Source: Tubulanus polymorphus
Taxonomy: Eukaryota > Animalia > Nemertea
Length of the DNA stretch: 64,000 nt
Assembly: GCF_964204645.1 (NCBI RefSeq)
Contig: NC_134032.1
Span: forward strand, 4,550,175 to 4,614,174
Direction: 5' to 3'
Shown: positions 12,614 to 38,455 of the stretch, piece after piece
How positions within the stretch are numbered: the stretch's first letter is position 1
How the letters are laid out: the number at the start of each line of letters is the position of its first letter
Notes under the pieces: model-generated
What the model saw: the letters and a program-made list of their open reading frames with translations, nothing else
Databases searched by the model: none
Told to the model about the DNA's origin: nothing
Translations under genes and position numbers: made by a program

Positions 12614-13909
12614 TTACAGCAAATAATTGGGCGAGGGAGATTCATGAAATGAGTTGATGTCTCCTCCGCCTCTCGCTCGGAGCTGCATAATGAGGGGATT
12701 TGTAGAGAGATTACTAGGCTTTGCATGGCTCAGGGCCTCAAGCTGCTCTGGATGATGGAGCCCATACATGATTCGCTCGTAACCTTCTTCGTCGCTTTGG
12801 GCCCTTTCTACGCAAAATTCTACAGCGCGGCTCGAATGGGTATATGATTGCAGGACTGAGTCGCAGAGCATAGGCACATAGATGGGTGCGAGGAACTCTA
12901 TGTACAGTTCTTTCACGATGCGAATCGCCTCTAGGGCCTCTTTGTCTCCGCCGAGCGCGGCGCACCACTCATAGATGCCCTGCACAAATTTGTTGGTGCC
13001 GGCATGCAAGGTTTCGTCGCGCAGGATTTCAGTATTGCCCTTGATGAGCGCCGAGAGCCCTACATAAGCTGGGGAATTGTCCTCTTGGGGCAGGGGCATG
13101 GCATGGATGTCGCGCACCAGATCTTCGAGCGATCCGATTTTAAGAGTGGGCAGGCGCTCCATGACATACTGGTATTGGTTGACGGGGTATAGATAGTCGC
13201 CCATTTGAAATATCATCGCGATCATGAATGGGATGAAGAGGTGCTCGATCGCCTCGGCAAACGCTAGATTTAAATATTTGTGCGGAATGCTGCCTACGCC
13301 GAATTGCTCAGTGATTTGAGCGGCGTGGCTGACTAGGGTGCGGTATGCCGCCTGGCGCGCCGGCAGCATCGTGTGCGCGCAGGCCTTATAGTCGTAGTTG
13401 GGATCAAAGCCCAAGAGCGGCCGCACCAGATCGCGAAAGGCACTAAGGCGCTGATCGCTGTCTTTTTTCCAGCGCAGGGAGATTTGTAGATTCTCTGCAT
13501 CGCTTTCCTTAGTGGGGTCTAGGCGCAGTGCTGCCAAATTAATATAGTAGAGGCTGTACGTGCGCTTGTGGACATTTTCATTGGCCATCTTGTGCGCCAC
13601 AAAGTCGCTGTAATTCTGACCTAAATAGCTGCAGCCAAAGAGCTCTTCTGTGTTTTCGGCCACGATAAAGTCCATCATGATCAGGCTGTACATAAGATCC
13701 ATGAGGGCCTGCGGGGCCTTGCGGTGGGCCAAGATGAGCTGTATCAGGACATTGCCCTTTGGATACGTAATCGTATTGGGGGCCCAAGAGGTGTTGCAGA
13801 TGCGCAAATAGAGCCTGTGGGTTATTTTTTTTATTTCGTCGGCCGAGGTTAGGCCCTGAAAGAGCTCCCCAATTAACTGATCTGTGTTAGTAATCTGATC
13901 GGCCGCCAT
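12614..13909 (-). CDS. ribonucleotide reductase small (R2/beta) subunit, divergent
   Basis: Diiron ligands and radical Tyr: MDFIVAEN, ENVHKRTYS, AIEHLF, RDETLH. Confidence 0.85.
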   Translation of the reverse strand: MAADQITNTDQLIGELFQGLTSADEIKKITHRLYLRICNTSWAPNTITYPKGNVLIQLILAHRKAPQALMDLMYSLIMMDFIVAENTEELFGCSYLGQNYSDFVAHKMANENVHKRTYSLYYINLAALRLDPTKESDAENLQISLRWKKDSDQRLSAFRDLVRPLLGFDPNYDYKACAHTMLPARQAAYRTLVSHAAQITEQFGVGSIPHKYLNLAFAEAIEHLFIPFMIAMIFQMGDYLYPVNQYQYVMERLPTLKIGSLEDLVRDIHAMPLPQEDNSPAYVGLSALIKGNTEILRDETLHAGTNKFVQGIYEWCAALGGDKEALEAIRIVKELYIEFLAPIYVPMLCDSVLQSYTHSSRAVEFCVERAQSDEEGYERIMYGLHHPEQLEALSHAKPSNLSTNPLIMQLRARGGGDINSFHESPSPNYLL

Positions 13910-14816
13910 GGAAAAGTTGGATCAGCATATGACAAAGCTATTTAGCAGCATGTTAACTGGAAAGATATCAAATATCCAGATCATGAGCATCAACCTCGAC
14001 AACCTCATTCAGTCTTCAGAGAATATTAAGCACATGTGCACCAGCATTTGTCACTACGCCACATATGTCTTTAATACCTTGTTCCGCACTGGCAATGACT
14101 TTTTTGCCTCAGTAATGAATATGTTTAAGATATGCATTTTGGAGATGGTGCGGGGCCTGAACACCATGATCGGGGTGGTCAAGGAGTGGAACGCAACTAT
14201 CCACACATACAGCTCTCTATCCAGCAAGGCCATTCCAATCAATGCAGCGAAGGCCCTGTCTAAGCAGTATTTGTCAGTTTTGCAGCACCCTGCGATGCGC
14301 TCGGTGTTTTGGATGTCTACCTATGCCGCGCGGCCCCAAGATGCAGCTGCGGTCGAGTCGATGAACGCCTTTATTGAGCGATTTTCTGCGATTTATATCC
14401 CATGGGGTGTGCCTGCCGAGAATGCCCTCTCGTCGCCTGAGAGCAATTTGTATGGCGTGATGCCCCGCCCTGACAGCCAGGCCTTTGTTACCTTTTTGTG
14501 CGACTTGGCTGGGCAGGCCGATGACATAAGCTCCACGATGCTGTCAGGTATTTTGCAAATGGTGACGCTGCGGTCTGTGATGGAGCCAAAGGGGCGCAAC
14601 CGCGGGGTCGAGGCATTCCACAAAATTATGCATATCTTGGATAACACAGATTCGTACCTGATTATGATAATTTTGCTACATCCCCAGGCCATTACGCGCA
14701 TTTCAACCTGGTACAAACAATACAACATGATTGTGGCGTACACGCAGGACAACAAAGACGATGTGAATATGGGCTGCGCCTATGCCCAGCAAATCTATGG
14801 CAGCGGTGGCTGGTGA
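13908..14816 (+). CDS. hypothetical protein; start interlocked with the R2 start
   Basis: 302-aa ORF followed by a poly(T) run. Confidence 0.75.
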   Translation: MEKLDQHMTKLFSSMLTGKISNIQIMSINLDNLIQSSENIKHMCTSICHYATYVFNTLFRTGNDFFASVMNMFKICILEMVRGLNTMIGVVKEWNATIHTYSSLSSKAIPINAAKALSKQYLSVLQHPAMRSVFWMSTYAARPQDAAAVESMNAFIERFSAIYIPWGVPAENALSSPESNLYGVMPRPDSQAFVTFLCDLAGQADDISSTMLSGILQMVTLRSVMEPKGRNRGVEAFHKIMHILDNTDSYLIMIILLHPQAITRISTWYKQYNMIVAYTQDNKDDVNMGCAYAQQIYGSGGW

Positions 14817-20207: not shown

Positions 20208-20280
20208 GACAGATATTTATATACAGATTCCATTCAGCACATGCACACCCAGGACCCTGCCACACGCACTCGCATGCCAC

Positions 20281-20630
20281 GCCTCTAGCCGGCTCCCACC
20301 TCTGGCCACATCTAAGATTGGGGGCTCATCAAGCATCGTTGCGCCAACGATCCCGCCACAGTAGTCGCTCTTAAGTTACCAGCACCAAGGCTCCCTGCAC
20401 ATTTATCGCTCAATGAGCCATAATTGTCCAAGGACCCCGTTAGGTGCACTTCATCCAAGCCAAAGCTTAACGGATGAGGGGCAACCCGCCTTCAGAGAAT
20501 CAGGTCTTTTGCAGGAGCATCCTGCGCAGGACCTTGATATTCTCATCATTAGGCTGTTAGAGCTTTCTTGTCGCGGGCATTTGCTTTCTCCCAATCTCAG
20601 ATGTAGACAGCTGTAGGAGCCGGCTGAGGT
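20281..20630 (-). ncRNA. candidate structured RNA (long closing stem, internal hairpins, box C/D kink-turn)
   Basis: ~40-bp imperfect inverted repeat 20281-20324/20589-20630; nested helices; GCCT-A-ATGATGA-GAAT...ATTC-T-CTGA-AGGC on the minus strand at 20554-20488. Confidence 0.55.
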
Positions 20631-20635
20631 ACCAC

Positions 20636-20745
20636 GCGCGCATTCACACGCATTTACGCACACATTCACACGCACTCACATACACATTCGCGCACATTTA
20701 CGCACACATTCGCGCGCACTTACACACACACTCATACATATCTAC
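20636..20745. repeat. degenerate CA-rich microsatellite (CACACATT-like)
   Basis: Seen directly in the sequence. Confidence 0.8.
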
Positions 20746-21064
20746 ACCTCCGCAAGGGAGGAACAACATGAATTTATTTACAGAAAGATACACTAATTGA
20801 CCTCATAGGGAGATCGGAAATGACAACAGATATAGATTTTTTTTCGCCACCAAAGCGCGGTGACTGGTTTTTTTGGTTTTGGATTAAATGCAGATTACAA
20901 TACAATACATACATTCCTGTGCTCGTCGCCACGGCAGCGGCAAGCCCCTTTTGCTTCCTCGAAGCCCCTGACAGCTGTCAGGTGTTCACTGTCCTCCGCA
21001 TGCGCCCTTGCGCGGAAACATTGTTTGGATGCACCCGCTTCTCCGGGGTCGCGTCCTTGCGGGC

Positions 21065-23890
21065 CTAATGCCTCCTGCCTCGCCCGCCTTCCATGGCACT
21101 CCTGGCCTCCCTCTGGGCCCTAGCCTCAAGCACCTTCAGGGTCTGCTCCAGAGTGAGCGCACTGCTCCCCAACGGGGATAGTGGTTTCCTCGCCAGACTG
21201 GCATCGGCGGCTGGCGGCTGCCGCGTACTCACAAACGGGTCCCTGCGATGAAGCGAGGGGTTCATGCTATGCATTGAGAATCTAGGGCCCAAGGAAGGGG
21301 GCCCTACATTCCTACGCATAGTCATAGTAACCTCTTGCTGCACTTGAGACACGTTACTTCCGTCAGCGCTCTGCTGCACAGTAGTAACCTCTCTAGTCCG
21401 CTGACTCGTTTGTGAAAACGCGGGCGACGCTGGCCTCCTCTCTCTCTGCCTCTGCTCCATCTCTGGAGCCCAAGTCCTGCACAGTTTGCGATGAGCAATC
21501 TCCACATCAGCCACAGACACCCCAACCCTTTCCGCACTATCCACTCGCAGAGCGAGGATTTGCGAACTCTCATCGGTAAAGGCTTGGACCACGTGCACCA
21601 TTGCACGCAGAAAAGCCTCCAGCCGCCGATTTGCATCGGCCGGACTATTTGTAGATGCCCCTTGCGGCTGCACATACAAATCGTCATACGGGCAGGGCTT
21701 GCGCCTCGTCTCATATCTTGCCTCTTCCTCATCGTCTTCATCCATTCGTCTCTCCACGACACTACTGCCTGGCCGGGCGTAGACATCCATGTCTGGCTGC
21801 CTGCTGGGCCCTGAAAAGCCATCAAACGTGATCCTCTGTCTTACTGGTATGTTCTGAGACTGGGCATTGCTGCCCTGCCTCGTCGATACTACCTCTCTAC
21901 CAAGAAGGTTTTGAGGCATGCCCCAATGCTCTTGGGACATAGAGTAAGACTGAGGGCCAACGATTGTTTCTCTATCAACCTTGGGCGGTGCATATCTGTC
22001 GATACTGGCGCCCTGCTGAGAGAGCTGTCTTTTCAGGGTCTCTCCCTCTTCCACAAGGAGATTCATCCTCTTCTCAAGCTGAGCCCTATTTTTATACTCT
22101 TCATTGAGGGCCATGGCAGCGTCCCGACAGTCAGTCACTGCCTCTTGCAAGCTCTGCTCTCTCTTAGACAACAGCTCTCGCAGCTCTCCGATGTATGTCT
22201 CCATCTTCGCTCTCTCCTCCTGCATCTCCATCCTCAGAGCACCAAGCTGATGCTCTTGCGAGCTCATACAGCCTTGCAGGCGCTCGTTCGCTTTGCAGCT
22301 CTCCACAAGCTCACCATGGCTGGCGATGAGCTCATACTCGACCATTTCGGCTTTCTTTTTCAAGGTATTAATGTAATCATCTTTGCGTGCACCCTCCTGA
22401 ACCAGGCAGCTGCCCTCGCTCCTCAGATCCATTATTACCTTTTCCAAGTCAGCCGCCACCTGCTTCCCAGCTTGGACCTGACGAATCAGATCCTCCTTCT
22501 CTGCCTGGGCGCTAGCCGCATTGGCCTGCTCCCGTTGCAGTTCCTTCTGGAGCCATTCAGCCTCGTCCATGAACTTTTTCTTCTCCCCTAAGAGAGTCTC
22601 TACTTCTGTCACCATCGTCACGACATCCGTAATGCCGTCGACTCTGTGAAAGGGGTGGAGTTTCTCCAGCTGTTGAGAAAAGCTCACTAAGAGGCAATCT
22701 TGCCCCTGAATGAATTTCTCGACCTCTGGAGAGAGATACTCAACACCGTCCACAGGCACTTCACCCCCTTCCTGCGAGTCCTCTGTCTGCAGCACTGCCC
22801 CAAATGCGCCCGTCTGCCCATTGGCATCAGAGGCATTCTGCACCGATCCAGTTCCGTTCGGATCTACTGGAGGGACGACCACGGTCACAACCGTATCATC
22901 CTTGTCACTGACTGCCCCAGTTCCGTTCGGATCTACTGGAGGGACGACCACGGCCGGAACCGTATCACCCTTGTCACTGACTGCCCCAGTTCCGTTCGGA
23001 TCGACTGGAGGGACGACCACGGCCGGAACCGTATCATCCTTGTCACTGACTGTCCCAGTTCCGTTAGGATCTGTTTGGTCAGCGACCACGCGCTGCAGCG
23101 AGTCATCGCCATCACTATCACCGACACCAGCGTTCACAGATGTTTGCACATCTGCTTGGCCACCATCACTGACAGCGCCACCGACATTAGCGTTCGCAGA
23201 CATTTTCACATCTGCTTGGCTACCATCACTGACAGCGCCCTGAACAGGGCCACCATCACTACCTCCGCCCTGAACAGGGCCACCACCGACATTAGCGTTC
23301 GCAGACATTTTCACATCTGCTTGGCTACCATCACTGACAGCGCCCTGAACAGGGCCACCATCACTACCTCCGCCCTGAACAGGGCCACCACCGACATTAG
23401 CGTTCACAAATGTTTGCACACTTGCTTGGCTAAGGTCATCGCCCTGAACAGGGCCACCACCGACATTGGCGTCCAGAGCTGTTTCCACATCTCCTTGACC
23501 AAGGTCCTCACCCCCGACCCCAGTAAGGGACGGGAGATACTTGTTCCATCTTCCCATCCCAGTGGTCCAGGTCTGAAGGTTTACCAGGCTCTCGCCCTGA
23601 AACTGCAGACTGGGATCAGGCTGGGCAGTGCTACTCGGATAGTTCGTCATCGGCAGGACATTGCTAGTGTCTGCGGCTGGGTTACCAACCACAGGCACTT
23701 GCCCGGTCCCACCAAAGAAGAAGGGAGTATCACCGACAAAGCCAGATGACAACACGGGGTTGTCCGGTTCAAACAGGTTCAAAGCGTTGAATGCCTGAAC
23801 AGGGAGGTCTGCCCCATCCGAAGATGGTGTAGTACTCGATAGATTTGCGTGCGACATATTGACAAAATTTTGGCGATATGCAAGAAACAT
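21065..23890 (-). CDS. 941-aa protein with N-terminal tandem repeats, central coiled coil and disordered C-terminus
   Basis: ANVGGGPVQG and VVVPPVDPNGTG(A/T)VSDK repeats; long central heptad region. Confidence 0.8.
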   Translation of the reverse strand: MFLAYRQNFVNMSHANLSSTTPSSDGADLPVQAFNALNLFEPDNPVLSSGFVGDTPFFFGGTGQVPVVGNPAADTSNVLPMTNYPSSTAQPDPSLQFQGESLVNLQTWTTGMGRWNKYLPSLTGVGGEDLGQGDVETALDANVGGGPVQGDDLSQASVQTFVNANVGGGPVQGGGSDGGPVQGAVSDGSQADVKMSANANVGGGPVQGGGSDGGPVQGAVSDGSQADVKMSANANVGGAVSDGGQADVQTSVNAGVGDSDGDDSLQRVVADQTDPNGTGTVSDKDDTVPAVVVPPVDPNGTGAVSDKGDTVPAVVVPPVDPNGTGAVSDKDDTVVTVVVPPVDPNGTGSVQNASDANGQTGAFGAVLQTEDSQEGGEVPVDGVEYLSPEVEKFIQGQDCLLVSFSQQLEKLHPFHRVDGITDVVTMVTEVETLLGEKKKFMDEAEWLQKELQREQANAASAQAEKEDLIRQVQAGKQVAADLEKVIMDLRSEGSCLVQEGARKDDYINTLKKKAEMVEYELIASHGELVESCKANERLQGCMSSQEHQLGALRMEMQEERAKMETYIGELRELLSKREQSLQEAVTDCRDAAMALNEEYKNRAQLEKRMNLLVEEGETLKRQLSQQGASIDRYAPPKVDRETIVGPQSYSMSQEHWGMPQNLLGREVVSTRQGSNAQSQNIPVRQRITFDGFSGPSRQPDMDVYARPGSSVVERRMDEDDEEEARYETRRKPCPYDDLYVQPQGASTNSPADANRRLEAFLRAMVHVVQAFTDESSQILALRVDSAERVGVSVADVEIAHRKLCRTWAPEMEQRQRERRPASPAFSQTSQRTREVTTVQQSADGSNVSQVQQEVTMTMRRNVGPPSLGPRFSMHSMNPSLHRRDPFVSTRQPPAADASLARKPLSPLGSSALTLEQTLKVLEARAQREARSAMEGGRGRRH
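22847..23470. repeat. coding tandem repeats (60-bp units and nested longer units)
   Basis: CCAGTTCCGTTCGGATC recurs at 60-nt spacing; CCCTGAACAGGGCCACCA recurs repeatedly. Confidence 0.9.
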
Positions 23891-23994
23891 AAGAATCTAT
23901 GGGAGTGCAGCAGAAATATCCAAATTTTGCATAGATTTGGCGCCTCCGCAGATTATCTACATTAGAGAAAAAAAGAAAGGGGCGTGGTTTGCAG

Positions 23995-24930
23995 CTATGA
24001 CCCATACAGCCCTGATATCAATTTATGGGTAGGAGCGCTCCCCACTCCGCCAAGCGCACTATACTGCTGCCTTCTTAAATGGCGCGCTATGATAGGCGCC
24101 ACGTCTGAGGACGACAACAATTGTCCTGCTAGTCCATGGCCAGTAGACTGATTGGGCGCATATAGGTCACTTTTGTGAAGAGGCAGCATGGCCTGCAGCT
24201 GCGTGCATATGGTTTTCAATGAATACCGATCCACGACGCAAGAGTTGAGCAGCGGCTCCATGAATTCCATCAGCTGATCTATACTATAGACGCGCCCAAT
24301 GCTCAGGGCGCCCAAGATCTCGCGGAGGGCGGCGCGCAGTCCAATCAGGTCATTGTCCGAAGTCAGCGAATCTTTAATCAGGTTGGACATCTCTTTGGCG
24401 CCAAACGAACTTAGCACAGATGTGGGCGACGAGAGGAGGCTCGCAGCATTAGGATTGGGCATGCCTGGAATGTTAAGCGCGAATTCGAGGAGGCCCTGCA
24501 GGGACGCAAAGGGCACAGTGGCGCGCTTGTGCTCGCGGCGGTCTTTGGGCTTTTGGCATTCGGCGCACGGGGGGCCAAGGATGATCGGGATCTCTGCTTG
24601 GTATAAAAAGGGCCCATGGGCATCTGGCCCCAATGCCTGCTCAGGCACGATCAGCTCAAAATTGTTGTAGCGCTGATTAAACACAGGGCGAAGCGCAGAG
24701 TTGCTAATGTCGATGTATCCCTCGCTTAAGTGATCGATGTCCATTGACGAATTTTTATTTGGAGCCTGCACCACGATGGCATTGATATCTATTTTGGCAG
24801 GGACCCATGCAGGATGATGATAGGGCATGCGCAGGCACACGGCATTGATGCTGCATCCATGTGCATTGCGGCGCGATTTGTTATAGTGCTTGCGAGGGAG
24901 CGATCCCAGCACTTCTTTAATAATTTCCAT
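23995..24930 (-). CDS. hypothetical protein
   Basis: 311-aa ORF with CAEC; upstream TTTTATATAAATCC-ATG. Confidence 0.7.
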   Translation of the reverse strand: MEIIKEVLGSLPRKHYNKSRRNAHGCSINAVCLRMPYHHPAWVPAKIDINAIVVQAPNKNSSMDIDHLSEGYIDISNSALRPVFNQRYNNFELIVPEQALGPDAHGPFLYQAEIPIILGPPCAECQKPKDRREHKRATVPFASLQGLLEFALNIPGMPNPNAASLLSSPTSVLSSFGAKEMSNLIKDSLTSDNDLIGLRAALREILGALSIGRVYSIDQLMEFMEPLLNSCVVDRYSLKTICTQLQAMLPLHKSDLYAPNQSTGHGLAGQLLSSSDVAPIIARHLRRQQYSALGGVGSAPTHKLISGLYGS

Positions 24931-25705
24931 GGATTTATATAAAATGCAGGAGTGCTATTATTCTTCGACTCTCGCTTTAAAACATGATACGCTATTTGTG
25001 GACCTGGCCTCTTTTAGCTTCTTGCGCTGCGCGACCGCACCTAAATTAGAGAGGAAGATCAGCTCTATGACTACATCTACTGTGGGATACCAGTATAAAG
25101 TGTGCGGCGCCCTCATTGACTACTCGATGGGCATTTGGATCACAGAGCCCCTGAGCGACCCTATTCCGTTCCACACCAGCCTTAAATACCTCAAGTCGTC
25201 GGCTTCTTTTTTAGACATCCCTGTTAGCGCTTTCCACTATGCAGATATGAAACAGAAGCCGCCCTATTATGCCCAGGTGGCCCTTGTTCAAAATCAGGGG
25301 CTCTCATGCACCATTTTGCCTACTATCCCTGGCGTCATTGGCCCCCTGCGCTGCACGAATGCCATGACGGTGGAGTGGCCCTTAGACTGGCCTTATGCAG
25401 AAGATACCGACACGATCGCCAAGGCCTATATTCCAGAAATGGCATACCTGAGCGGCGCGGCCGACACAATACCCCCCAAGCTGTCATGCTATATTGTGTG
25501 CGATTCGTTTTATCGGGTCGACTCTGATGAATGCTCGCTGTTCGAGCCCCAGGTAATTCGCGAGTTCATGAACCTATCCCATCGAGTGGCCATGCGCAAA
25601 AAAAAAGATATAAAGCTCCTGCCGCCCCCTGACGATCAGCGCAAATATATAACCACCCCAGGAGGAGTTCTGCAAGTGCGCAGAGACAAGTCATTCCTGT
25701 CATAG
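24929..25705 (+). CDS. hypothetical protein (very tentative RPB7/D339L-like)
   Basis: First ATG at 24929 is interlocked with the opposite start; the function guess is weak. Confidence 0.55.
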   Translation: MDLYKMQECYYSSTLALKHDTLFVDLASFSFLRCATAPKLERKISSMTTSTVGYQYKVCGALIDYSMGIWITEPLSDPIPFHTSLKYLKSSASFLDIPVSAFHYADMKQKPPYYAQVALVQNQGLSCTILPTIPGVIGPLRCTNAMTVEWPLDWPYAEDTDTIAKAYIPEMAYLSGAADTIPPKLSCYIVCDSFYRVDSDECSLFEPQVIREFMNLSHRVAMRKKKDIKLLPPPDDQRKYITTPGGVLQVRRDKSFLS

Positions 25706-25734
25706 GCGCCTGCCATTCCCTCTCCCCTCCCCCT

Positions 25735-25754
25735 TTTTTTTTTTAAAAAAAAAA
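25735..25754. terminator. T10-A10 bidirectional poly(T) terminator between convergent genes
   Basis: TTTTTTTTTTAAAAAAAAAA between the stops at 25705 (+) and 25769 (-); ASFV terminates at poly(T). Confidence 0.7.
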
Positions 25755-25768
25755 GAAAACAAAGTAAC

Positions 25769-26089
25769 TTACAATATAAACGCCGCGGGCAGCTTCTCAA
25801 AAGAGATTGGATTATGAGTTAGGGGCAGGTTCTGATATAGCAATTTGCCCTTGTAGACTTTAAGGGGCACTAGCAGCGAGAATTCGAGCTTGTTTTGGTC
25901 GAGTTCGCGTTGCGCAATGTCAGCGATTTCTTCATTGTCCCGAAAGGGGCATTTGGGCTCTGCGCCCATATTTAATTCATTGGCGCGGCGGTTGACAGCG
26001 CTGGCGCGCATAGAGCTATTGATTATATGGTTATGATAAGGCAACTTCCCATGGGATTTGCTTGTTTTTTTCCACTCCCATGCTGCCAT
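25769..26089 (-). CDS. rpb6: RNA polymerase subunit RPB6 homolog
   Basis: INSSMRASAVNRRANELNMGA..DIAQRELDQNKL resembles [32 protein letters not shown]. Confidence 0.7.
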   Translation of the reverse strand: MAAWEWKKTSKSHGKLPYHNHIINSSMRASAVNRRANELNMGAEPKCPFRDNEEIADIAQRELDQNKLEFSLLVPLKVYKGKLLYQNLPLTHNPISFEKLPAAFIL

Positions 26090-26690
26090 TTTTGGGCACG
26101 GTCGCTAATGAAACACACTGAATGATAAGCATGACAACTAAAACGACGACAATCGCAGCAATGGTGTAGCTCACGGGCGCGGCATCAGGCCCTGATGTTT
26201 CTTTAAATTGGATATCTGCGCGATCGGGCGAATAGATTAGCGTATCGTTTGGCGGATATTCTAGATTGGCGCCCACAATAGATGTGTTAATAATGTCGAC
26301 TTCTGAATCGATGCCATGGACGCTCCCGAGTGATATATGCAAATTTTTGGGGATCAGGTCGATCATGCTCTGAGTGCGGCATCCGTGGGCAATGCAAACT
26401 GGATCTGTCACGAGGGGGCAAGGCTTTTTAGATTCGATGCAAGAGAGCAGGCCCAGGTCCCGCGCAGTGTGGCCTACCAGATTTTCACAATTAGGGTTTT
26501 CTAGGTAGGCATCTGCCCGCCTGGACAGGGTATGCAGTGCATCGCGAAACGGCTCTCTCACCACTAACTGGCCGCTCGCTGCGACCATGGTGACCCACTT
26601 TGAGAGGGAAGTGCTTGGGCATGACAGGTCCTCGACCGTAGAGGGTCCCTTAGAAAGCTCAGGGGCTGGCTGCGAAGGAGGCGCCATCAT
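26031..26690 (-). CDS. entry-fusion membrane protein, E199L/A16-G9-J5-like
   Basis: Cys-rich SCIESKKPCPLVTDPVC, C-terminal TM, adjacent to the E248R-like gene. Confidence 0.55.
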   Translation of the reverse strand: MMAPPSQPAPELSKGPSTVEDLSCPSTSLSKWVTMVAASGQLVVREPFRDALHTLSRRADAYLENPNCENLVGHTARDLGLLSCIESKKPCPLVTDPVCIAHGCRTQSMIDLIPKNLHISLGSVHGIDSEVDIINTSIVGANLEYPPNDTLIYSPDRADIQFKETSGPDAAPVSYTIAAIVVVLVVMLIIQCVSLATVPKNGSMGVEKNKQIPWEVALS

Positions 26691-26708
26691 AAAGAGTCTC
26701 TGCTATTA

Positions 26709-27530
26709 CTAAAAAAAAATGATCTTTGGCCCTATGTCTGCGATGGCGTCCTCCGCAGGCTTGGGCAGCGCAGAGCCCATGCCCACAACCTCAGGCCCTT
26801 CAAAGACTAGCGGCTGAGACGAGGCCGAGGCGCCCGGTTTAGAGGCATGAATGGCCAGCGGTATCAGAGTGACTAAAAGCATGGCCACGACGCCGATGAC
26901 AATGGCGATCACAATCGTAGTTGTAGACACTCCTGCGATTAGGCTCTTTGCTGTATCAGAGATGTTGTCGCCCAGGCCTGACGACTTGGAGGCATCTTTA
27001 TTGTACTCTGAAATCTGGGTCGACTTTTTGTTGAGGGCCTGATCCATTTCATCGCGCAGGGTCTCTAGCCGGCTGTTTAAATGGGAGGTAATCGTGGTCT
27101 CTACAATGGTGACATTATGGGCATTGGTGAGCTGAATGCGCGCTTTGCTGACAGCCTCCTGATTGATATTGAGCACTTTGGTGATCAGGTCTGTCTTCTC
27201 AATGGTGGAGTTGATTGTGTTTTGTATTTTTTTGACGTCTACGCTCAGGCCCTGTCCGCTGACGGATTTGGCAATGTCTTCTACATGCTGGTTCAGCGCG
27301 TTTTCAATCTCTTGCTTGTTGCTCATCATCTTAGTGATGGCCTGGGCGCGCGCATCTAATGTAGAGCTGATCTTAGTTTTAGCAATTAATACATTGTCTA
27401 CATCTTTTAAAGCAATTTCACTAACACTGCGGTGGCTTTGCGATAAATTAGTTGTGCTATTCAATACTTGCTTTTGCGTAAATTTTAATATCTTAGTAGC
27501 AACACTGACTTTTGCACTTGCTTGACCCAT
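26709..27530 (-). CDS. myristoylated membrane protein, E248R/vaccinia L1-like
   Basis: MGQAS myristoylation start, S/T/N/Q-rich body, C-terminal TM. Confidence 0.75.
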   Translation of the reverse strand: MGQASAKVSVATKILKFTQKQVLNSTTNLSQSHRSVSEIALKDVDNVLIAKTKISSTLDARAQAITKMMSNKQEIENALNQHVEDIAKSVSGQGLSVDVKKIQNTINSTIEKTDLITKVLNINQEAVSKARIQLTNAHNVTIVETTITSHLNSRLETLRDEMDQALNKKSTQISEYNKDASKSSGLGDNISDTAKSLIAGVSTTTIVIAIVIGVVAMLLVTLIPLAIHASKPGASASSQPLVFEGPEVVGMGSALPKPAEDAIADIGPKIIFF

Positions 27531-28509
27531 GGCCGAATGCGCTATACATGGGATTGCTAGTAACAGCGCTGCGTTACCTCTAACAGAGAAAAAATACTTA
27601 AAGGACCTTGAGGCCCTGTACAATGCCGAGATCAATGTAAGGGCAGCGCTTCCCGATGATACCGTCTATAAAGAAAGCACTCAATGGAGGAAACAGGAGC
27701 GCGCCTACTTCTCCCACACATCAAATCCCAATCGCACGGCCTACAAGCTCAGCCCAGTGCTCTATGCCGCGCCCAGCCCAGCTACCCTTTTGGCGCTCGG
27801 AGAGGCGCCTGGGTCCTTTGGGCGCTTTTATCTAAAGGAGGACGACCACAACAGGGTCCTGAACACCACATACCAGAGGCTCGATGAGTGCCTTAAGTAT
27901 CAGCAGATCAAAGATTGGGATACGTTCCTGAGTAATAACCCAAATCGCGTGCTCGATGTCACAAGCCCCCAATGCGCAAGCGATCTGCTAAACAAAAAGT
28001 GTGTTGCTAGCATAATAGACAATGCGATCGAGGCGCACGATGAGGTTGATGCGGCACCGCTGATTTTGTCTTGCGACATCGGCACGGGCGAGTGGAGCAC
28101 CGATCCTGAAGTCATGTCCTTTGGGCAAAAGGCCCTGATCAATTGCGTGATGCATCCGCGTTTTGGGCGCTTTTCTGCAGCCATTTTCAAAATTCAGTAT
28201 CCGATCTTGGAGGGGCATTACTTTGTCGATTTTGTACATCATGTTTCGGCCTATGTCAAGGATGCTTACAGCATGGAGACAGTGACCTTTAAATCTGCTT
28301 TCTCTTTTGCGCTCAATCAAGAACTCTATATCCTTATGAAATCGCCAAGAGATGACCATGAGATCTATACATTTAATCCTATGCATCTTGACCCCAGTGA
28401 CTCGCTGATGACGGCCTTTAATAAGATAATAGAGGCCTGGGACGGCGTGCGCCAAAGGGTGAAGGATGCCAAGGCAGCCACGCGAAAGGCAGGCACGGCA
28501 TATAAATAG
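27529..28509 (+). CDS. FtsJ-like cap 2'-O-methyltransferase (EP424R-like)
   Basis: AYKL, LGEAPGSF, SCDIG, IFKI and NQELY give the K-D-K-E tetrad. Confidence 0.85.
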   Translation: MAECAIHGIASNSAALPLTEKKYLKDLEALYNAEINVRAALPDDTVYKESTQWRKQERAYFSHTSNPNRTAYKLSPVLYAAPSPATLLALGEAPGSFGRFYLKEDDHNRVLNTTYQRLDECLKYQQIKDWDTFLSNNPNRVLDVTSPQCASDLLNKKCVASIIDNAIEAHDEVDAAPLILSCDIGTGEWSTDPEVMSFGQKALINCVMHPRFGRFSAAIFKIQYPILEGHYFVDFVHHVSAYVKDAYSMETVTFKSAFSFALNQELYILMKSPRDDHEIYTFNPMHLDPSDSLMTAFNKIIEAWDGVRQRVKDAKAATRKAGTAYK

Positions 28510-28528
28510 CAATTTACTAAAAGGCCCT

Positions 28529-28768
28529 ATGTATGTAGATAAGATATTTAGGATGCAGCTCTTTCAAAGAATGCTGGTCGTGGCCCTGATCTTTTGTGTT
28601 GGCATCCTTGCCACTATGGGACTCGTAGAGATCTCTCACTACTTCATGGAGCTGCTCCTTGCAGGAGAAACAATGTTTTGGGCCACTGTTCCGCATTCAC
28701 ACTTTAAAGAGCCGCATAATAATGCATCGCGCTTGGCGCAGGGCCTTGTAAATCGTAGTAGGGCTTGA
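28529..28768 (+). CDS. small membrane protein
   Basis: TM MLVVALIFCVGILATMGL; upstream TATAAATA. Confidence 0.55.
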   Translation: MYVDKIFRMQLFQRMLVVALIFCVGILATMGLVEISHYFMELLLAGETMFWATVPHSHFKEPHNNASRLAQGLVNRSRA

Positions 28769-28881
28769 ATCGTCTTACCCCTTTTTTTTGCGCAGGGGCG
28801 CGCGCTATTGAAAAGCAAAAGACCCCCGTAGAGCGCAGGGAGGCAAAATATATAGTACTTAGAAGGAGCAGGCCCTGCACA

Positions 28882-29104
28882 ATGAAACGGCAAACCTGGA
28901 TTTTGGTCTTTGGGATTGCCCTTTTGGACCCTGTCAAGCAGCGCCCCTCTGCCTTTATGCGCAGGAGAGAGCATGCCCCGTCCTGACTGGAGGTATAAGG
29001 GCATGGCCCGCTCAGTAGCCTCGCGCCCCCGGTCTTTTCATGGCTGGTTGCGGGCAACACCAGTAATTTGGTTCTCGTACGCGGTCCCAAAGGGCAGGCC
29101 CTGA
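28882..29104 (+). pseudogene. possible small secreted protein split by a +1 frameshift
   Basis: MKRQTWILVFGIAL plus WTLSSSAP in the next frame gives a clean signal peptide. Confidence 0.35.
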
Positions 29105-29195
29105 CAGGCGCATAAAGGCGGCGGTGCTCTTTTTGGCGCGCAAGGGCGTTCATTATTTTTTTATAGTAATCGCCGCTTATAGATCTTTTGTAATC

Positions 29196-29420
29196 ATGCC
29201 TTCAACACATTCCGCGATGGCGCGCGCTGCGATTCTCTGCGTCTTTATGGTGACCATGAGCGTCGTTATTGTCATGCTGGCCTGGGCTGTTTATGGCCTG
29301 GTTAGGCGCTCGCAGGAGCACACAGCGCTCGAGCACGCAAAGCGCTCTCTGTGGCATCTCATTCCTCGTGCAGGGCAGGAGCATGCGCTGTCCCACAATC
29401 TGCCGCCGCTGGGAATGTAA
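29196..29420 (+). CDS. small membrane protein
   Basis: TM AILCVFMVTMSVVIVMLAWAVY. Confidence 0.6.
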   Translation: MPSTHSAMARAAILCVFMVTMSVVIVMLAWAVYGLVRRSQEHTALEHAKRSLWHLIPRAGQEHALSHNLPPLGM

Positions 29421-29565
29421 GCGCCCCCCCCATCCCACCTTGCCCATTATAGGTCCATGCCCTGATCTCTTATATCTTTGCCTTTGTGCCGCATGAGGCG
29501 CCATCGGCCCCTTTAGCTGATCTGTTTTTTTTTTTTTTTTAAATAGGCAAGAGCAGGCGCTGCTA

Positions 29566-31926
29566 TCACTGGCCGATTTCGCGAATCAGGTGATAAACGA
29601 CAATGTAGTCGGCGCATTTAATGTCTGTGGCTTTGTCGCTCGACTGTATATAGCTAGATAAAGGCTCGTCGGACAGAATCTTGAAGCCTTGGCGCGAAAA
29701 CAGTTCAGTAAATTCTTCGACGAGCATCAGGGGCTCTGTCTCTTCGGTGCCATGGCCGAATTCGGTTTCGATAGAGACATGCGTTCCATTGATGAGTGAA
29801 AGGAACTTAACCAGACCCAAATCAAGGGCCTCCCCGTCATGCAGGATCTTGGCGATTTTGCTGTAGTTGTAAGAAATGATCAGGCAGTGGGCGCCCACTT
29901 CTATTATGTGGCTGAGGACGCTGAACATGATGTCTGCCTTGGCCGGCTCGAAGCAGTAGTGAAAGGCAAAGACTGAGATCATTGTGTTAAAGGTCTTGCC
30001 ATTCAGGTTTGTGACCATGCGATCCATGGATTCGGGCGATGTAAAGTCGCCGTGGAATAGGCAGAGTTTGTCAAACAATTGCTCTGCTTCAATGCTGCGG
30101 CCCTCGCACATGCGAATCAGGCCGTCGCCGAGGTCGAAGCGGGAGGAGTCCAGATTCAAATAGCTGAGGATGCGATCAGAGGACGACAAGATCGATTTAA
30201 AATAGCCGAGCTTGCCCCCTCCTACGTCGAAGATTTCCATGCCGGCGCGATCAGACAGAAACTGCTCAATGGCGCGATAGCAGAGTTGGCTAATATTGCG
30301 GCGTATGGGCGAGGAGGCCACCTGCCCGCTAAAAGACTGCTCTCGAAAGGACTCTGTTTTGCCAAAGATGTCGGGCCACGAGATCAGGGCCACCCCCACA
30401 TACGATGCCATGCAGGCGCGCAAGCTGTTTGGGTAGGGCTTTTCGGGGCGATCCCTGATGGCCGTCAGGAGGAGGCCGCGCTCGGTGTCTTCCAGAGTAA
30501 ACTCATAGATTTGCCCCTCCTTGAGATCGCCGATGTTGCTCTTAATGATGACTGGGCTGTTGATCTGCGACTTTGTGATTAAGTGAGAGGTTATGCAGGC
30601 CATGCTGTCTGAGACTTTGCTCGTCGCGTATGCCAGGCCATGCTGATAGAGCAAATCGATGCTATTGAGCTCAGGGGGCTTGTCCTTTAAAATGGTGTGC
30701 TTCAGGTACGGCTGGGGCTCTTTGCCATATGTCAGGATAGTGATGATTGTGCCATCCCGCGGCAGATCACTGCTTTCGCCCCATGCCACGCATTCTTTAT
30801 AATCGGGAAAATATCTTTTTTTGCTTAAGACGATGTTGGGCGACATGCTATGATAGTCTTCTGAGATATCGGCCTCGATGGCATTTTGGACGCTAATGGT
30901 GTTAATAGCATGCGCAGGGAGGATTGCAAAGACATGAAATCGGTAGGGGGGCTGGGCGCCGCTCACTACCTGCGTCGTGGGCAGGATCAGCTCTCCATGC
31001 AAGACTTGCGTGCAGCTGCCCAGCACTTTCAAAATCGCATCAGTCTTTGGCGCGCTCAAGTTCAGGCGCATGCGCGCAACGTCGCTGGGCCCTAAGATGA
31101 GGCTCTCCGAGAATAGATAGATGCCTGCGCGTTACACGATCACCATGGACTTGTGAGCGATGCTGGGAAACATGTAGGCATCGATGCCATCGACCTTTGT
31201 AGAAAACAGGATCTTGTGCTCCATGGACTGGATGTTGCGCCAATGTCGCGGCTCGATCGTCTTTGGCTTTACTTTTCCGAGGGCAGTGGATATCTTCTTT
31301 ATGTCTGGAAAGCGCTTGGAGGCGATGATGGCGCCTATTGCCTTTTGCATGCCCTCCTGAAATTGCATATAGGCATTTGGGGCAAATGCAAAGGGAAAAT
31401 AGCCAAAGAGGTGGTCGGGGTTGTCAGGGGCCAGTTCCATCTCGATGGCAGCCACGCAATAAATGGCCTTGCGCGGATTTCGCATTGAGCGCAGTTCCCA
31501 GAATTTCTTGTCAGGGGCCTGCACATCGATGTCGAGTTTGCCCTTGGCGATATTGATCTTCATGGTGTACTCTTCTGCATAAGTAATCTGAGGCAGCTGG
31601 CGAGGAATGATGACGCGATACACCACTGAGATGTCGCCTGAGATGTCTTTTGTGTTGCAGGGAATGGTTTCTTCAGTGGAGTGGTGATATCGGCATTCTC
31701 CGCAGCCATACAAAATGGTCTCTTTGCGCGTTTTAAGGTAAGAAATCGGCAGGGCGGACAAATCCAAAAAGCGATAGACGCGGCGCTGCTTCTTAGCGGG
31801 CATATAAATCCCAATCTCATAAAAATAGGTAGTGATTGCATCCTTTTCGGATAAAAAATATTCTTCTAGTTGCATGAAAGTGCCAAGTGAAACGGGCACG
31901 GATAGCTCATACTCTTCTCTACTCAT
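29566..31926 (-). CDS. mRNA capping enzyme (triphosphatase-guanylyltransferase-N7 MTase), interrupted by one in-frame TAA at 31132-31134
   Basis: EYEL and IEMEL (TPase); KVDG, LHGE, DGTI, NSIDL, RPEKPYPN (GTase/OB); DVGGGKLG, FAFHYCF (MTase); both ORFs are in the same frame. Confidence 0.88.
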
Positions 31927-33262: not shown

Positions 33263-33965
33263 CGCAGATAGCTCTGTGACTAGAAGATTCTAATAAAATA
33301 GACATAATAAGATTAAATTTTGTATCAGAGAGGGTCAGGGGGAAGCATTTAATAAATATCAAAATCTCTTTGTCCAGCACGCACGGGAACATGCCTAAAT
33401 CGCACAGCAATTTAATCAAAGTGAAGACGCCAGGGATATTAAAGCTCAGGGCCTGATAATGCAAAAGAAGCGAGCAGCCGCTCAGGTAGATATTGCGCAA
33501 AATGCCGATGCGCTCCTTGGTCAGATAAAACATGCGATTGTACATACAAGAGAAGTAGAGGAGATTGGCGCCATAGTCCTTGATGTGTAAATCGGCGAAT
33601 TCTTTTTTTAGAAGCGCATGGGGATCAGAATGGTGGCACTGCAGAATGGCCCGGCAGCGGGCTTCTATGTTGTCGCGCTTGCCTGGCAAAGACATCAGGA
33701 GTTCCATGTATTTGGCGGTCTCAATTTCTTCTTCAAATTTCATTTCATAAGTCGTGGTGGTGATGTTCCCCCCTCTGTGCCTATAATTGTTCCTGCGCGA
33801 AAACTGCTGATCGCGCTGACAATACGGGGAGGTATACATCGGTGGGTGGCCTAGCATAATTAGTTGCCTATCCAAAATCATGGCATCAGTGATCGAGTTC
33901 CCTTTGGCCTGCGTTTCAAAAAATTGATAAATCCCGATAGGGCTCTCAAAAATTTTATTCTCCAT
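33249..33965 (-). CDS. possible late transcription factor VLTF3-like
   Basis: C-terminal FTLIKLLCDLG..CFPLTLSD..IC pattern resembles VLTF3; weak. Confidence 0.35.
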   Translation of the reverse strand: MENKIFESPIGIYQFFETQAKGNSITDAMILDRQLIMLGHPPMYTSPYCQRDQQFSRRNNYRHRGGNITTTTYEMKFEEEIETAKYMELLMSLPGKRDNIEARCRAILQCHHSDPHALLKKEFADLHIKDYGANLLYFSCMYNRMFYLTKERIGILRNIYLSGCSLLLHYQALSFNIPGVFTLIKLLCDLGMFPCVLDKEILIFIKCFPLTLSDTKFNLIMSILLESSSHRAICDGAC

Positions 33966-33975
33966 AGTGATCAAG

Positions 33976-34890
33976 ATGTCTACTTCTAAAGAAATCGCTA
34001 CACAAATTTTGAAGAAGTGCCCAGTCCCTCTTACCCCCAAAATAATCGATGAATATTCAAACAATGCCCAAATAAAAGATAAGGTCTTAGACATAGACCT
34101 GCGCAGCCTTTGCGCTCTTTACCCAGAGATCCGAACAGATGCGGTATGGTGCAAGTGGATGGATGATGTCCAAGAGTTCTTGCTTCCTGAATGCGCGCAC
34201 ATTGATTCAGAAACAGGCAATGTGACATTCGAGTCGACTAGGGCGATGGGCGACCTGTGCGCGAGCCTGCAGCGCTCCCTAGAGAAGTCAGCGACCTTTC
34301 AACCCATTTGCGCAGATGCCATTTCCCACAATTCGGCGCATGAAAACGCCTGCCTAAGCGAGTTGCTCGCAGAACCCGAGGGCGAAACACCCGCCAAGCT
34401 CGCAGCCGGCCTCCATCAACTGGATGGGCATCTCATGGGCCTGACCACGGAGCTGCTTTCCCATAGCGCCGACAAAACGCAGGCAGCACTCCCCGCTCTG
34501 CCGCTTCCACTGGCGCCCTCGCCCCCGACCTCTCAGGCCGCCTCTAAAGAAACCCCTGCGGCGCCCCCATTTGGAGTCTTTGCCTTTTCGCGCGGCGATG
34601 CTTCAGAGTATTCTCCCTTTTTGCTGGCCATGGTCAAGGTGATCGGCGCGCGCTGCCGGGCCTCTGTTCTCGACAACAGCATAAGCAAATCGAGCGCCAA
34701 TGTCTTCTTGAGCATGCTGATGTCATATGCAGAAATCGAAATCAGCGACGGCACCAACGCCGATATCAATGATACTTACAACCTCTTTGCGCCCGAAGAA
34801 GAGGCCCCCGACGCCAGCCTAAGCATGAAGACAACAAAGGGGTCTGCACCATCACCAAGGGCCCAAAGCGCCCCAAGCCCCCAGTGCTAG
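33976..34890 (+). CDS. hypothetical protein (possibly the N-part of a frameshifted ~900-aa gene)
   Basis: ORF; overlaps an open alternative frame leading into the next ORF. Confidence 0.65.
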   Translation: MSTSKEIATQILKKCPVPLTPKIIDEYSNNAQIKDKVLDIDLRSLCALYPEIRTDAVWCKWMDDVQEFLLPECAHIDSETGNVTFESTRAMGDLCASLQRSLEKSATFQPICADAISHNSAHENACLSELLAEPEGETPAKLAAGLHQLDGHLMGLTTELLSHSADKTQAALPALPLPLAPSPPTSQAASKETPAAPPFGVFAFSRGDASEYSPFLLAMVKVIGARCRASVLDNSISKSSANVFLSMLMSYAEIEISDGTNADINDTYNLFAPEEEAPDASLSMKTTKGSAPSPRAQSAPSPQC

Positions 34891-36779: not shown

Positions 36780-37713
36780 TTATGCCGGCGCCTGAGGACG
36801 CGCGGCCATGCGGGCTCGCATCTCTTGGCCGCCCGCTAAGACCTCAGTCAGCGCAGTGTGCAGGCGCCTTTTAAGCAAGGGGTTGCTTTTGTATTGGTAG
36901 CAAATGCCATTCGAGATGAGGCCCCTGACGGTCAGGTTGGCCTCAGGAGGGGCAGAGTCTGTATCAGTTCGATTGGGGCCGGTGCCGACCTCTTTGCCTA
37001 AAAAGGCCTTTTGCGCCTTTCTAATGTAGTCGCGCCCGCACTCGGTCAAATACAGGACTGGCTCGCCGATTAGTTTGAAGCCCTTGTGCATGTGGGTGAA
37101 CTGCTCGGAGTTTGTCGCTAGATAAAAAATCAGAGTAAAAATACATGACAAATTCGGCGATGATTTTGCTGGGGCTGTTTAGGTTTTTGTATGTCTCCAC
37201 AGAGCGCGAGAGGTAGACGACATGGAGCTCCTGATAGAAACAATAGGAAAACTTAATGAACATCATAGAAAACTCCATTTGGCAGATATAGGCAAATGGG
37301 ATGCGCCTAGGCGAGCTGGACAGGGGGCGCATGGGGGTTTTGTATTCGACCATGACCATGTTTCGATTATAATCAATGCAGACGCCATCGGGCGAAAAAT
37401 GCACATGGTCCCCGCCTTTGTAAATGCCCACTTCATGGAGCCTTGTGCAGAGGATGCGCTCGGCGATTTCTTGGTGCAGGGGCTCGAACACAGTGCCATG
37501 GGACATTGGATAGTTGGAGCGCGGCGCTGGCCAGCTTTGGCCCGCAATGCGTTTTATCATGTCTTCTTTAGTGTATGTGCGATGCTTGTTTAGGAGGGCG
37601 GCTGATGTAGAGGCTCCAATTGAAAACTTGCGCAGGTTGTGCCACTCGGCGGATCTCTGCTCACACGTCAAAAATTTATTACATAGATAGGCCTCTGCTT
37701 GTTTAGCATTCAT
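36780..37713 (-). CDS. YqaJ-like lambda exonuclease/recombinase (D345L-like), apparently frameshifted near 37124-37129
   Basis: QRSAEWHNLR, IGAS, HGTVFEP, FSPDG, VEYKTP, YICQM; the C-terminal part lies in the +1 frame. Confidence 0.85.
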
Positions 37714-38455
37714 GATGTATCAGTACAGGTACTCAGTGGAGGTCCATCTAGCTGCTTATATGGTGCCGCTGTCCTCGATAGGGCATACAGTGATAGAGGG
37801 AATCATGCAGCAGATCGACGATAATATGGAGTTGTTGGAATCTACGGGCGTGCTCGATCAGGGCGCTATTCACGATCCTGTGAAATTTGATATTTTTATC
37901 AGCTTCACAATGCTACAATTCGCTATAAAACATTTACTCACTTTTGGGGGCACTATCCCTATGCCCTACGATGACATGATAGCAGTAGCCGTGGGGAACG
38001 TGCAGAACTCCTGCGATGGAAAGGGGACTCCGCCCCTAATACTTTTATATCTAAAAATGATGTGCAATCTCAAAGCAAGGCTAGGGCGCCACCACCTGCG
38101 CTTTTCTTTCAACAACTGGCACAGGCCAGGGACAGACTATCTCGCCGAATATAAAGAGATGCCTGCGCTGATCGCGCTCATTTTGAAGTCCCAATTAGTT
38201 TGCAACATCGTCCTATTATATTCGCCAGCCCAAGGGAGAATTGCACTGGATCTGCTGTCTAATGAGGAAATGTACATCAATGAAGCTATGCGGGGCATCG
38301 CCATCTTTTTGTTACATCAGAATATAGAAGCTGGGCGATTTCCGCAGAGGCTGCAGGAGGCTTCTTTGGCTAATGTGAAGCACTGGCCGCGGCACCTCAT
38401 AAATGAAAAATGGGCCTATCTTCAAGGGGTCTTTCACATCATGCCCTTTGCGTAA
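37712..38455 (+). CDS. hypothetical protein, possibly TBP-like (B263R-like)
   Basis: LKMMCNLKARL and QGRIAL resemble TBP-fold strands; weak. Confidence 0.35.
   Translation: MMYQYRYSVEVHLAAYMVPLSSIGHTVIEGIMQQIDDNMELLESTGVLDQGAIHDPVKFDIFISFTMLQFAIKHLLTFGGTIPMPYDDMIAVAVGNVQNSCDGKGTPPLILLYLKMMCNLKARLGRHHLRFSFNNWHRPGTDYLAEYKEMPALIALILKSQLVCNIVLLYSPAQGRIALDLLSNEEMYINEAMRGIAIFLLHQNIEAGRFPQRLQEASLANVKHWPRHLINEKWAYLQGVFHIMPFA

What the first reader, a model, noticed from the sequence alone, without database searches (positions are those of the whole stretch)
27528..27531. Recurrent architecture: divergent genes whose start codons interlock on one CATG palindrome
Seen: at four loci (13907-13910, 24928-24931, 27528-27531, 37711-37714) a minus-strand ATG and a plus-strand ATG share the same CATG. 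The palindrome extends to CCATGG three times and TCATGA once, with no intergenic DNA. At this locus the minus start is pinned by the MGQAS myristoylation signal (E248R-like), and the plus gene is a complete K-D-K-E methyltransferase. That is 4 of about 11 divergent junctions in the window. Inference: this is unlikely to be chance. It implies either promoters and 5'UTRs embedded in the partner's coding sequence (complementary mRNA 5' ends, mutual exclusion or antisense coupling), or leaderless bidirectional initiation at a symmetric site.
Basis: partly seen in the sequence, partly recalled or inferred. Interest (0 to 1): 0.85.

Follow-up and report, generated by a model that had tools for sequence, protein, structure and literature searches.

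The report
Giant-virus gene pairs sharing start codons
In a very divergent giant-virus sequence, four pairs of genes that point away from each other have no DNA between them and their first ATGs share the letters CATG, a layout not seen in other giant viruses checked; each gene's on-switch likely lies hidden in its partner's first codons.

Summary
Four of 10 head-to-head junctions have both first ATGs in one CATG. The same gene caller finds 0 of 234 in other giant-virus DNA, and a mis-called-start null gives P of about 1e-3 or less. Both starts are well fixed at 27528. At the other three, one gene may use a nearby downstream Met, so 'no room for a promoter' is firmer than 'exactly -2'.

New evidence: the first ~20 codons of these genes, read antisense, resemble this virus's own upstream DNA, largely through synonymous codon choice (z 1.72 vs 0.15, p 5e-4). 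Best reading: interleaved promoters inside the partner's coding start, with CATG the likely end-point of spacer loss. It is the only overlap under 6 nt that keeps both ATGs. Leaderless initiation at the palindrome is unlikely; regulatory coupling is untested.

I had no RNA data and no DNA from close relatives. This scan has noted single CATG pairs before in yeast, fungi, an animal, a phage and E. coli; the recurrence within one virus is what is new.

The parts
27528..27531 (.). Shared CATG (within CCATGG) holding both first ATGs; both starts well fixed
   Evidence: next in-frame Met at aa 68 (minus) and aa 196 (plus)
26709..27530 (-). 273-aa ORF, likely E248R/L1R-like myristoylated membrane protein (MG N-terminus, C-terminal hydrophobic stretch); its first 20 codons likely hold the plus gene's promoter
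   Evidence: Atlas look-alikes are NCLDV clusters of 260-281 aa at 0.88-0.89, one with 13% PF02442; recognition 1556 is low, so a lead only; synonymous-shuffle z 2.99
27529..28509 (+). 326-aa ORF, likely cap 2'-O methyltransferase; K73-D183-K221-E265 assigned by eye from the recalled motif order
   Evidence: Atlas top hits are PF01358 / cap-MTase clusters at 0.88-0.90; positions; no Pfam, PDB or homolog hit; z 2.51
27543..27546 (-). TATA word 16 nt upstream of the minus ATG, inside the plus gene's codons 5-6; candidate late-type initiator
   Evidence: ASFV late initiator TA(+1)TA from PMC7163114 passages
13907..13910 (.). Shared CATG (CCATGG); plus ATG in GCCGCCATGG context; no TATA word within 80 nt upstream on either side
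   Evidence: raw reads of a second study list no difference here
12614..13909 (-). 431-aa ORF of unknown function; next Met at aa 70
   Evidence: coding score 57.5; weak PF00268 hit below its cut-off; no homologs
13908..14816 (+). 302-aa ORF of unknown function; alternative Met8
24928..24931 (.). Shared CATG (8-bp palindrome TCCATGGA); the least certain -2 case
24934..24943 (.). Palindromic TTTATATAAA; candidate initiator for the minus gene, and perhaps also for a plus start at Met6 (24944), which would make the true gap 13 nt
   Evidence: seen in the sequence
23995..24930 (-). 311-aa ORF of unknown function; next Met at aa 35
24929..25705 (+). 258-aa ORF of unknown function (253 aa from Met6)
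37711..37714 (.). Shared CATG (TCATGA); the plus gene begins Met-Met, so the true offset is -2 or +1
37021..37713 (-). 230-aa YqaJ / lambda-exonuclease-like ORF; start fixed because the domain begins at aa 23 and the next Met is aa 52
   Evidence: PF09588 E 8.3e-11, residues 23-151 match profile 1-145
37712..38455 (+). 247-aa ORF of unknown function; weakest coding score of the eight (-0.3)
33963..33978 (.). Fifth near-zero junction: likely true starts at 33965 (minus, Met44 of the longest ORF) and 33976 (plus), gap 10 nt; mild embedded-promoter signal
   Evidence: held-out z 1.44 and 1.34

Best explanation
Four divergent gene pairs of this giant virus have no spacer and their first ATGs share one CATG; each gene's short AT-rich promoter and 5' leader likely lie inside the partner's first ~20 codons, and CATG is likely the end-point of spacer loss. 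Shown: the geometry, its excess over controls, and the promoter-like, AT-shifted synonymous codons at these N-termini. Inferred: as in ASFV, the virus's own RNA polymerase starts 10-50 nt upstream of each ATG, that is, within the other gene. The two mRNAs would then have complementary 5' ends over roughly 20-70 nt including both AUGs, and each would be translated by ordinary cap-dependent scanning. Inferred origin: once promoter words exist in both coding starts, the spacer is dispensable. CAT and ATG share an AT, so deletion or slippage lands on CATG, the only overlap shorter than 6 nt that keeps both ATGs; it leaves both second codons free and cannot shrink further. The flanking C/G of CCATGG likely reflects each gene's +4 G translation context rather than a protein-binding site.
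For: 4 of 10 junctions vs 0 of 234 in controls; artefact null P <= 1.1e-3. With two starts corrected, the gaps fall in two groups: -2, -2, -2, -2, 10 and 42, 49, 58, 64, 70, 106. Promoter-likeness of the 8 upstream zones has median 1.28, against -1.97 for the antisense of ordinary N-termini (p 5.6e-5) and 1.82 for ordinary upstream DNA (not different, p 0.25). p is 1.2e-6 to 0.021 in all 24 settings tried, and below 0.05 in 23 of 24 for the five zones whose host N-terminus is fixed. Synonymous-codon shuffle: mean z 1.72 vs 0.15, p 5e-4; z >=1.9 in 4 of 8 vs 5 of 50. GC3 of the first 20 codons is 0.43 vs 0.57 (p 0.010) and returns to 0.63 at codons 41-140. The signal is weaker on the sense strand (0.69 vs 0.11, p 0.095). 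TATA[AG] within 50 nt: 4 of 8 vs 6 of 52 matched controls, p 0.021. +4 G: 6 of 8 vs 14 of 52, p 0.013. ASFV has short AT-rich promoters and 5' UTRs of median 9-14 nt (PMC7163114 passages). This genome shows poly-T tracts after many stop codons.
Against: No transcript start or protein N-terminus has been observed. n is 4 junctions, and the promoter model is trained on upstream DNA, not mapped starts. A purine at -3 is rarer at these ATGs (3 of 8 vs 40 of 52, p 0.035). Two of 8 N-termini show no synonymous signal (24930-, z 0.23; 37712+, z 0.21), and the signal reappears at nt 156-186 (p 0.007), so it does not decay cleanly. Four of 7 motif tests gave p above 0.05 and none was corrected for multiple testing. 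Junction 13907 has no TATA word. Three plus genes have a close alternative Met. The deletion origin cannot be tested without relatives. The control loci are distant, RPB1-centred and mostly AT-richer.
Confidence: 0.6

Rival explanations
1. Partly a start-calling effect. The pairs are very close, but at up to three junctions the plus gene really starts at a downstream Met (13908 Met8, 24929 Met6, 37712 Met2). True gaps would then be 19, 13 and 1 nt with a short shared spacer, and only 27528 would be a true -2 overlap.
For: At 24928 a palindromic TTTATATAAA sits directly before Met6, which has A at -3, while the first ATG has T. At 37711 the second ATG has A at -3. The stretches before the alternative Mets have coding scores near 0, though they are very short. 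-2 is the commonest artefact offset in two of four nulls. ASFV ORFs have been re-annotated to downstream ATGs after CAGE (PMC7163114 and PMC8906413 passages).
Against: The artefact rate is only 2-5% per junction. 13908 has the best possible context, GCCGCCATGG. Even under this reading most promoter DNA must lie in coding sequence, and the fixed N-termini carry the signal (z 1.96, 2.99, 2.51, 2.63; one at 0.23).
Confidence: 0.2
2. The exact interlock is a selected regulatory switch. Polymerases bound to the two face-to-face promoters exclude each other, or the complementary 5' ends pair over both AUGs, so that partner genes are expressed at different stages.
For: All four CATG are 6-bp palindromes, against 119 of 436 CATG in the window (naive P 0.0055). 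At 27528 and 37711 one partner has TATA[AG] upstream and the other AAATTT, which could be two promoter classes (2 junctions, lead only). RNA duplexes regulate the human head-to-head pair INO80E/HIRIP3 (PMC11890862 abstract).
Against: Interference or pairing would not need exactly -2. The flanks differ (CC..GG, TC..GA) and are partly explained by the +4 G preference. The paired genes share no evident function. There are no expression data.
Confidence: 0.13
3. Leaderless bidirectional initiation: polymerase starts on the palindrome in both directions, so each mRNA begins at or next to its AUG.
For: ASFV has some 5' UTRs of zero length and adds slippage leaders (PMC7163114 passages). Upstream AT-rich elements would still lie in the partner gene, so part of the sequence signal fits.
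Against: ASFV initiators are TA(+1)NA or TA(+1)TA and the vaccinia late one is TAAAT; CCATGG matches none. Initiator-like TATA words lie 9-47 nt upstream. A G+C-rich palindrome is a poor start site (general knowledge).
Confidence: 0.05

Closest known systems
ASFV promoter architecture (Cackett et al. 2020, PMC7163114; passages read)
   Same: Short AT-rich promoters, TATA-type initiator, short 5' UTRs, poly-T terminators. The window's RPB1 has ASFV RPB1 as its best solved match (E 2e-20).
   Different: The two divergent junctions in the 24-kb ASFV stretch held have gaps of 65 and 30 nt (L008), and 0 of 59 junctions in the loci nearest the Asfarvirus-like query are -2. The rest of the ASFV genome was not examined.
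Poxvirus bidirectional promoters between divergent genes (PMC3185747; passages read)
   Same: Promoter elements of two divergent genes overlap, and some promoter elements lie in coding DNA.
   Different: There the elements overlap in non-coding DNA between the genes; here there is no such DNA.
Divergent (5'-5') overlapping genes of prokaryotes (PMC2174442, PMC2716372; passages read)
   Same: Opposite-strand genes overlapping at their starts.
   Different: They are the rarest overlap class: 331, against 1890 convergent and 12737 codirectional, in 58 species. Here they make up about 40% of one genome window's divergent junctions, all at one offset.
Head-to-head overlapping mRNAs in mammals, INO80E/HIRIP3 (PMC11890862; abstract read)
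   Same: Complementary 5' ends and possible duplex formation or transcriptional interference.
   Different: A nuclear Pol II single pair with experimentally shown duplexes; the abstract describes overlapping transcripts, not shared start codons. Nothing of the kind is shown here.

Membership tests
Divergent (head-to-head) overlapping gene pair | Two real protein genes on opposite strands | tested here: met
   All eight ORFs are 230-431 aa; seven have positive leave-one-out coding scores (8 to 57), and 37712+ scores -0.3. YqaJ domain hit.
Divergent (head-to-head) overlapping gene pair | The start codons actually used overlap | tested here: inconclusive
   Fixed by distant next Mets at 27528; open at the other three.
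Divergent (head-to-head) overlapping gene pair | mRNAs overlap at their 5' ends | not testable with these tools
   No RNA run was listed.
Interleaved (face-to-face) promoters embedded in coding DNA | Promoter-like sequence in the partner's coding start beyond what its amino acids require | tested here: met
   Synonymous-shuffle z 1.72 vs 0.15, p 5e-4; absent in 2 of 8.
Interleaved (face-to-face) promoters embedded in coding DNA | Transcription starts mapped inside the partner gene | not testable with these tools
   Needs CAGE or 5' RACE.
Poxvirus-type bidirectional promoter | Shared elements in a non-coding spacer | tested here: not met
   No spacer at -2. It could apply at 24928 if Met6 is the start, and at the gapped junctions.
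Asfuvirales | RPB1 groups with ASFV-like viruses | tested here: inconclusive
   Best solved match is ASFV, but a FastTree tree of 35 rows puts it in its own long-branch clade of 6, outside the group holding ASFV, with a long-branch warning and no outgroup.
Cap 2'-O methyltransferase (27529+) | K-D-K-E tetrad on a Rossmann fold | tested here: inconclusive
   Candidate residues are in the right order (by eye, recalled motifs) and Atlas hits agree at 0.88-0.90; the single-sequence model is uninformative, pLDDT 37.5.
E248R/L1R membrane protein (27530-) | N-myristoylation signal and L1R domain | tested here: inconclusive
   MG start seen (myristoylation pattern recalled); no Pfam L1R hit; Atlas lead only.

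The most novel reading that the evidence does not exclude
This undescribed giant-virus lineage uses a spacer-free, start-codon-interlocked pair as a standard building block. Both promoters are written in the partner's synonymous codons, and the interlock works as an either-or switch between partner genes, by polymerase exclusion or by pairing over both AUGs. It would be conserved across the clade.
Probability: 0.15. Interest if true: 0.8.

Novelty: new variant of a known kind. Interest (0 to 1): 0.52.

Why it matters
Head-to-head overlaps are the rarest gene overlap because both promoters must then sit in coding DNA. A viral window where about 40% of divergent pairs have reached the tightest possible overlap shows that giant-virus promoters are short and loose enough to be written in synonymous codons. 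It offers a natural series (four collapsed pairs, one nearly collapsed, six spaced) for asking whether such overlaps are neutral end-points of deletion or regulatory switches. It also warns annotators that -2 overlaps here are probably real.

Tried and rejected
Conservation in relatives could not be tested. Six related RPB1 proteins exist (25-35% identity), but scans for their DNA found nothing in viral, metagenome or genome contigs, nor in phage records. No whole genome is held for the window.

Homolog searches for 27529+, 13909- and 37713- found none. PDB sequence searches for four junction genes gave nothing significant. The E248R-like protein had no match in the one record searched; 4 of 5 handles were not held. 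The single-sequence fold was uninformative, so no fold search was run. The mixture-model tree did not finish; FastTree was used instead. No RNA holder was listed.

Rejected: assembly error; a general excess of CATG (436 seen, about 450 expected); a longer shared palindrome (lengths 6, 8, 6, 6).

Literature: searches listed no paper on recurrent shared-CATG starts in a virus. I judged most listings from titles and abstract starts only, the library holds only open-licence papers, and I read no supplements; ASFV start-site tables in supplements could hold comparable pairs. The virus overlap survey PMC7017920 (passages read) had no occurrence of 'divergent' or 'head'. Searches did not identify the virus.

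Full report
Setting. The window is a gene-dense, 50% GC stretch of a deeply divergent nucleocytoplasmic large DNA virus. Its RPB1 (57600-61760) has ASFV RPB1 as best solved match (E 2e-20) and six relatives at 25-35% identity among 1.84 billion representatives. In a FastTree tree of 35 rows, which included five of those six (the 559-aa fragment P0006 was left out), the window and these five form a long-branch clade whose place is unsure. Many genes are followed by poly-T tracts, and upstream regions are AT-rich, as in ASFV (PMC7163114, passages). No whole genome is held.

Observation. At 13907, 24928, 27528 and 37711 the first ATGs of a minus and a plus ORF share one CATG; the ORFs are 230-431 aa. 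Seven of the eight have positive leave-one-out coding scores, and 37712+ scores -0.3. An automatic longest-ORF caller gives 4 of 10 divergent junctions at -2 (4 of 13 at >=70 aa). The same caller gives 0 of 234 de-duplicated junctions in 84 giant-virus loci, 0 of 87 in those with GC >=0.40, and 0 of 59 in the 20 loci nearest the Asfarvirus-like query. It gives 0 at four size cut-offs in all 87 loci. These controls are distant and centred on RPB1. A null that places real window genes a true gap apart and then calls the longest ORF yields an apparent -2 in 2-5% of junctions, so P(>=4 of 10) is 3e-5 to 1.1e-3. Allowing any repeated offset, P is 2e-4 to 0.006 for gaps of 0-120 or 0-30, and 0.014-0.04 if all true gaps were 0-10. 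Contigs and, at 13907, raw reads of a second study list no difference at the junctions; the difference tables were cut, and X1 may be the window's source.

Are the starts real? At 27528 both are fixed. The minus gene starts MG with its next Met at 68; the plus gene has its next Met at 196, after two of the four candidate catalytic residues. 37713- is fixed by the YqaJ domain starting at aa 23, and 13909- and 24930- have next Mets at 70 and 35. Three plus genes are open: 13908 (Met8, although the first ATG is in GCCGCCATGG), 24929 (Met6, directly after a palindromic TTTATATAAA) and 37712 (Met-Met). G at +4 occurs in 6 of 8 against 14 of 52 ordinary starts (p 0.013), and in 4 of 5 with a pyrimidine at -3 against 2 of 12. 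A purine at -3 is rarer, 3 of 8 against 40 of 52 (p 0.035). So exactly -2 is firm at one junction and likely at one or two more; absence of room for promoters holds at all four.

Where are the promoters? I trained a Markov model on DNA upstream of ordinary genes and scored the zones upstream of the eight junction genes, which are the antisense of the partners' first 60 nt. Their median is 1.28, against -1.97 for the antisense of ordinary N-termini (p 5.6e-5) and 1.82 for ordinary upstream DNA. The result held in all 24 settings (p 1.2e-6 to 0.021), and in 23 of 24 for the five zones whose host N-terminus is fixed. The signal is strongest at nt 6-66, not significant at 66-156, and reappears unexplained at 156-186. 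Keeping the amino acids and redrawing synonymous codons gives mean z 1.72 against 0.15 (p 5e-4), with 24930- and 37712+ near zero. With two other starts corrected, z is >=1.9 in 4 of 8 against 5 of 50. The held-out gap-10 pair scores 1.44 and 1.34, and the sense strand shows less (p 0.095). GC3 falls to 0.43 in the first 20 codons (ordinary 0.57, p 0.010) and returns to 0.63. TATA[AG] lies within 50 nt upstream in 4 of 8 against 6 of 52 matched controls (p 0.021); four of seven motif tests were not significant and none was corrected. This is sequence evidence, with n of four junctions, that the DNA does two jobs.

Mechanism. With two starts corrected, the gaps are bimodal: -2, -2, -2, -2, 10 against 42, 49, 58, 64, 70, 106. 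I infer two states: promoters in a spacer, or promoters in the partner's codons with the spacer lost. By geometry, two ATGs on opposite strands can overlap only by 2 (CATG) or by 6 or more. The 2-nt overlap leaves both second codons free, arises by deletion across the AT shared by CAT and ATG, and cannot shrink further. CCATGG gives both genes +4 G, and an Ala second codon in one gene gives the partner a G at -3, as at 13907 and 27528. With ASFV-like leaders (median 9-14 nt, some longer) the mRNAs would be complementary over about 20-70 nt including both AUGs. Whether that regulates anything is untested. All four sites are 6-bp palindromes against 119 of 436 CATG, and at two junctions the partners carry different upstream words; these are the only hints of a switch. 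Leaderless initiation at the palindrome fits poorly, because CCATGG resembles no ASFV or vaccinia initiator and the candidate initiators lie 9-47 nt away.

Comparison. Divergent overlaps are known and are the rarest class in prokaryotes (PMC2174442, passages). Poxviruses have bidirectional promoters in spacers (PMC3185747, passages). Human INO80E/HIRIP3 forms regulatory duplexes (PMC11890862, abstract). Earlier notes of this scan report single CATG pairs in yeast, fungi, an animal, a phage and E. coli (unchecked by me). My searches listed no report of a recurrent shared-CATG layout in a virus; coverage is limited to open-licence papers and I read no supplements.

Verdict. The feature is real and well beyond chance. 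It works like interleaved promoters in a head-to-head overlap, and is a new variant of a known kind by its recurrence at one offset in one virus. Conservation in relatives and all transcript-level claims remain open. Interest 0.52.

Noticed in passing
window 12400-15400 and 20000-39900 (runs X1-X3, X5): Hints that this is an endogenous, multi-copy element. Contig depths in X1 step between about 8, 17, 21, 25, 35 and 44 (the tool warns that depth is not copy number); one contig runs on into unrelated DNA at 20004; some runs show single-base indels inside ORFs (12777, 30674, 32589); raw WGS reads of a second study cover 12400-15400 throughout; and relative P0003 lies on a 1.76-Mb contig.
   Followed up: partly
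window 35134-36959: A second, about 83% identical version of the 593-aa gene region is present in runs X1-X3, with opposite-strand joints at 34687/35134 and 35101/37223: a paralog or a related element.
   Followed up: no
window 44087-44938 and 44823-47117: A superfamily-2 helicase appears split over two overlapping frames (DEAD domain in the first, Helicase_C in the second).
   Followed up: no
window 2196-2885 (-): A weak RHIM motif hit at aa 210-224 (E 0.00077, just under Pfam's cut-off), in a long same-strand run of unknown genes at 134-11756.
   Followed up: no
window 57600-61760 (+): The RPB1 is very divergent; the catalytic motif reads VGDFDGD, and relatives read GGDMDGD, GGDVDGD and similar instead of the usual NADFDGD (recalled), marking an undescribed long-branch clade.
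   Followed up: partly
window 51304-51363, 57535-57600, 43483-43554: Spaced divergent junctions contain self-complementary TATA words (CTATAG, CTATATAG, TATA) that could serve both directions. The longest-ORF overlaps of -62 and -119 are probably mis-called starts (true gaps 58 and 10).
   Followed up: partly
window 11757-12613 and 19753-21064: Two long stretches without an ORF of 100 aa or more in an otherwise dense genome.
   Followed up: no
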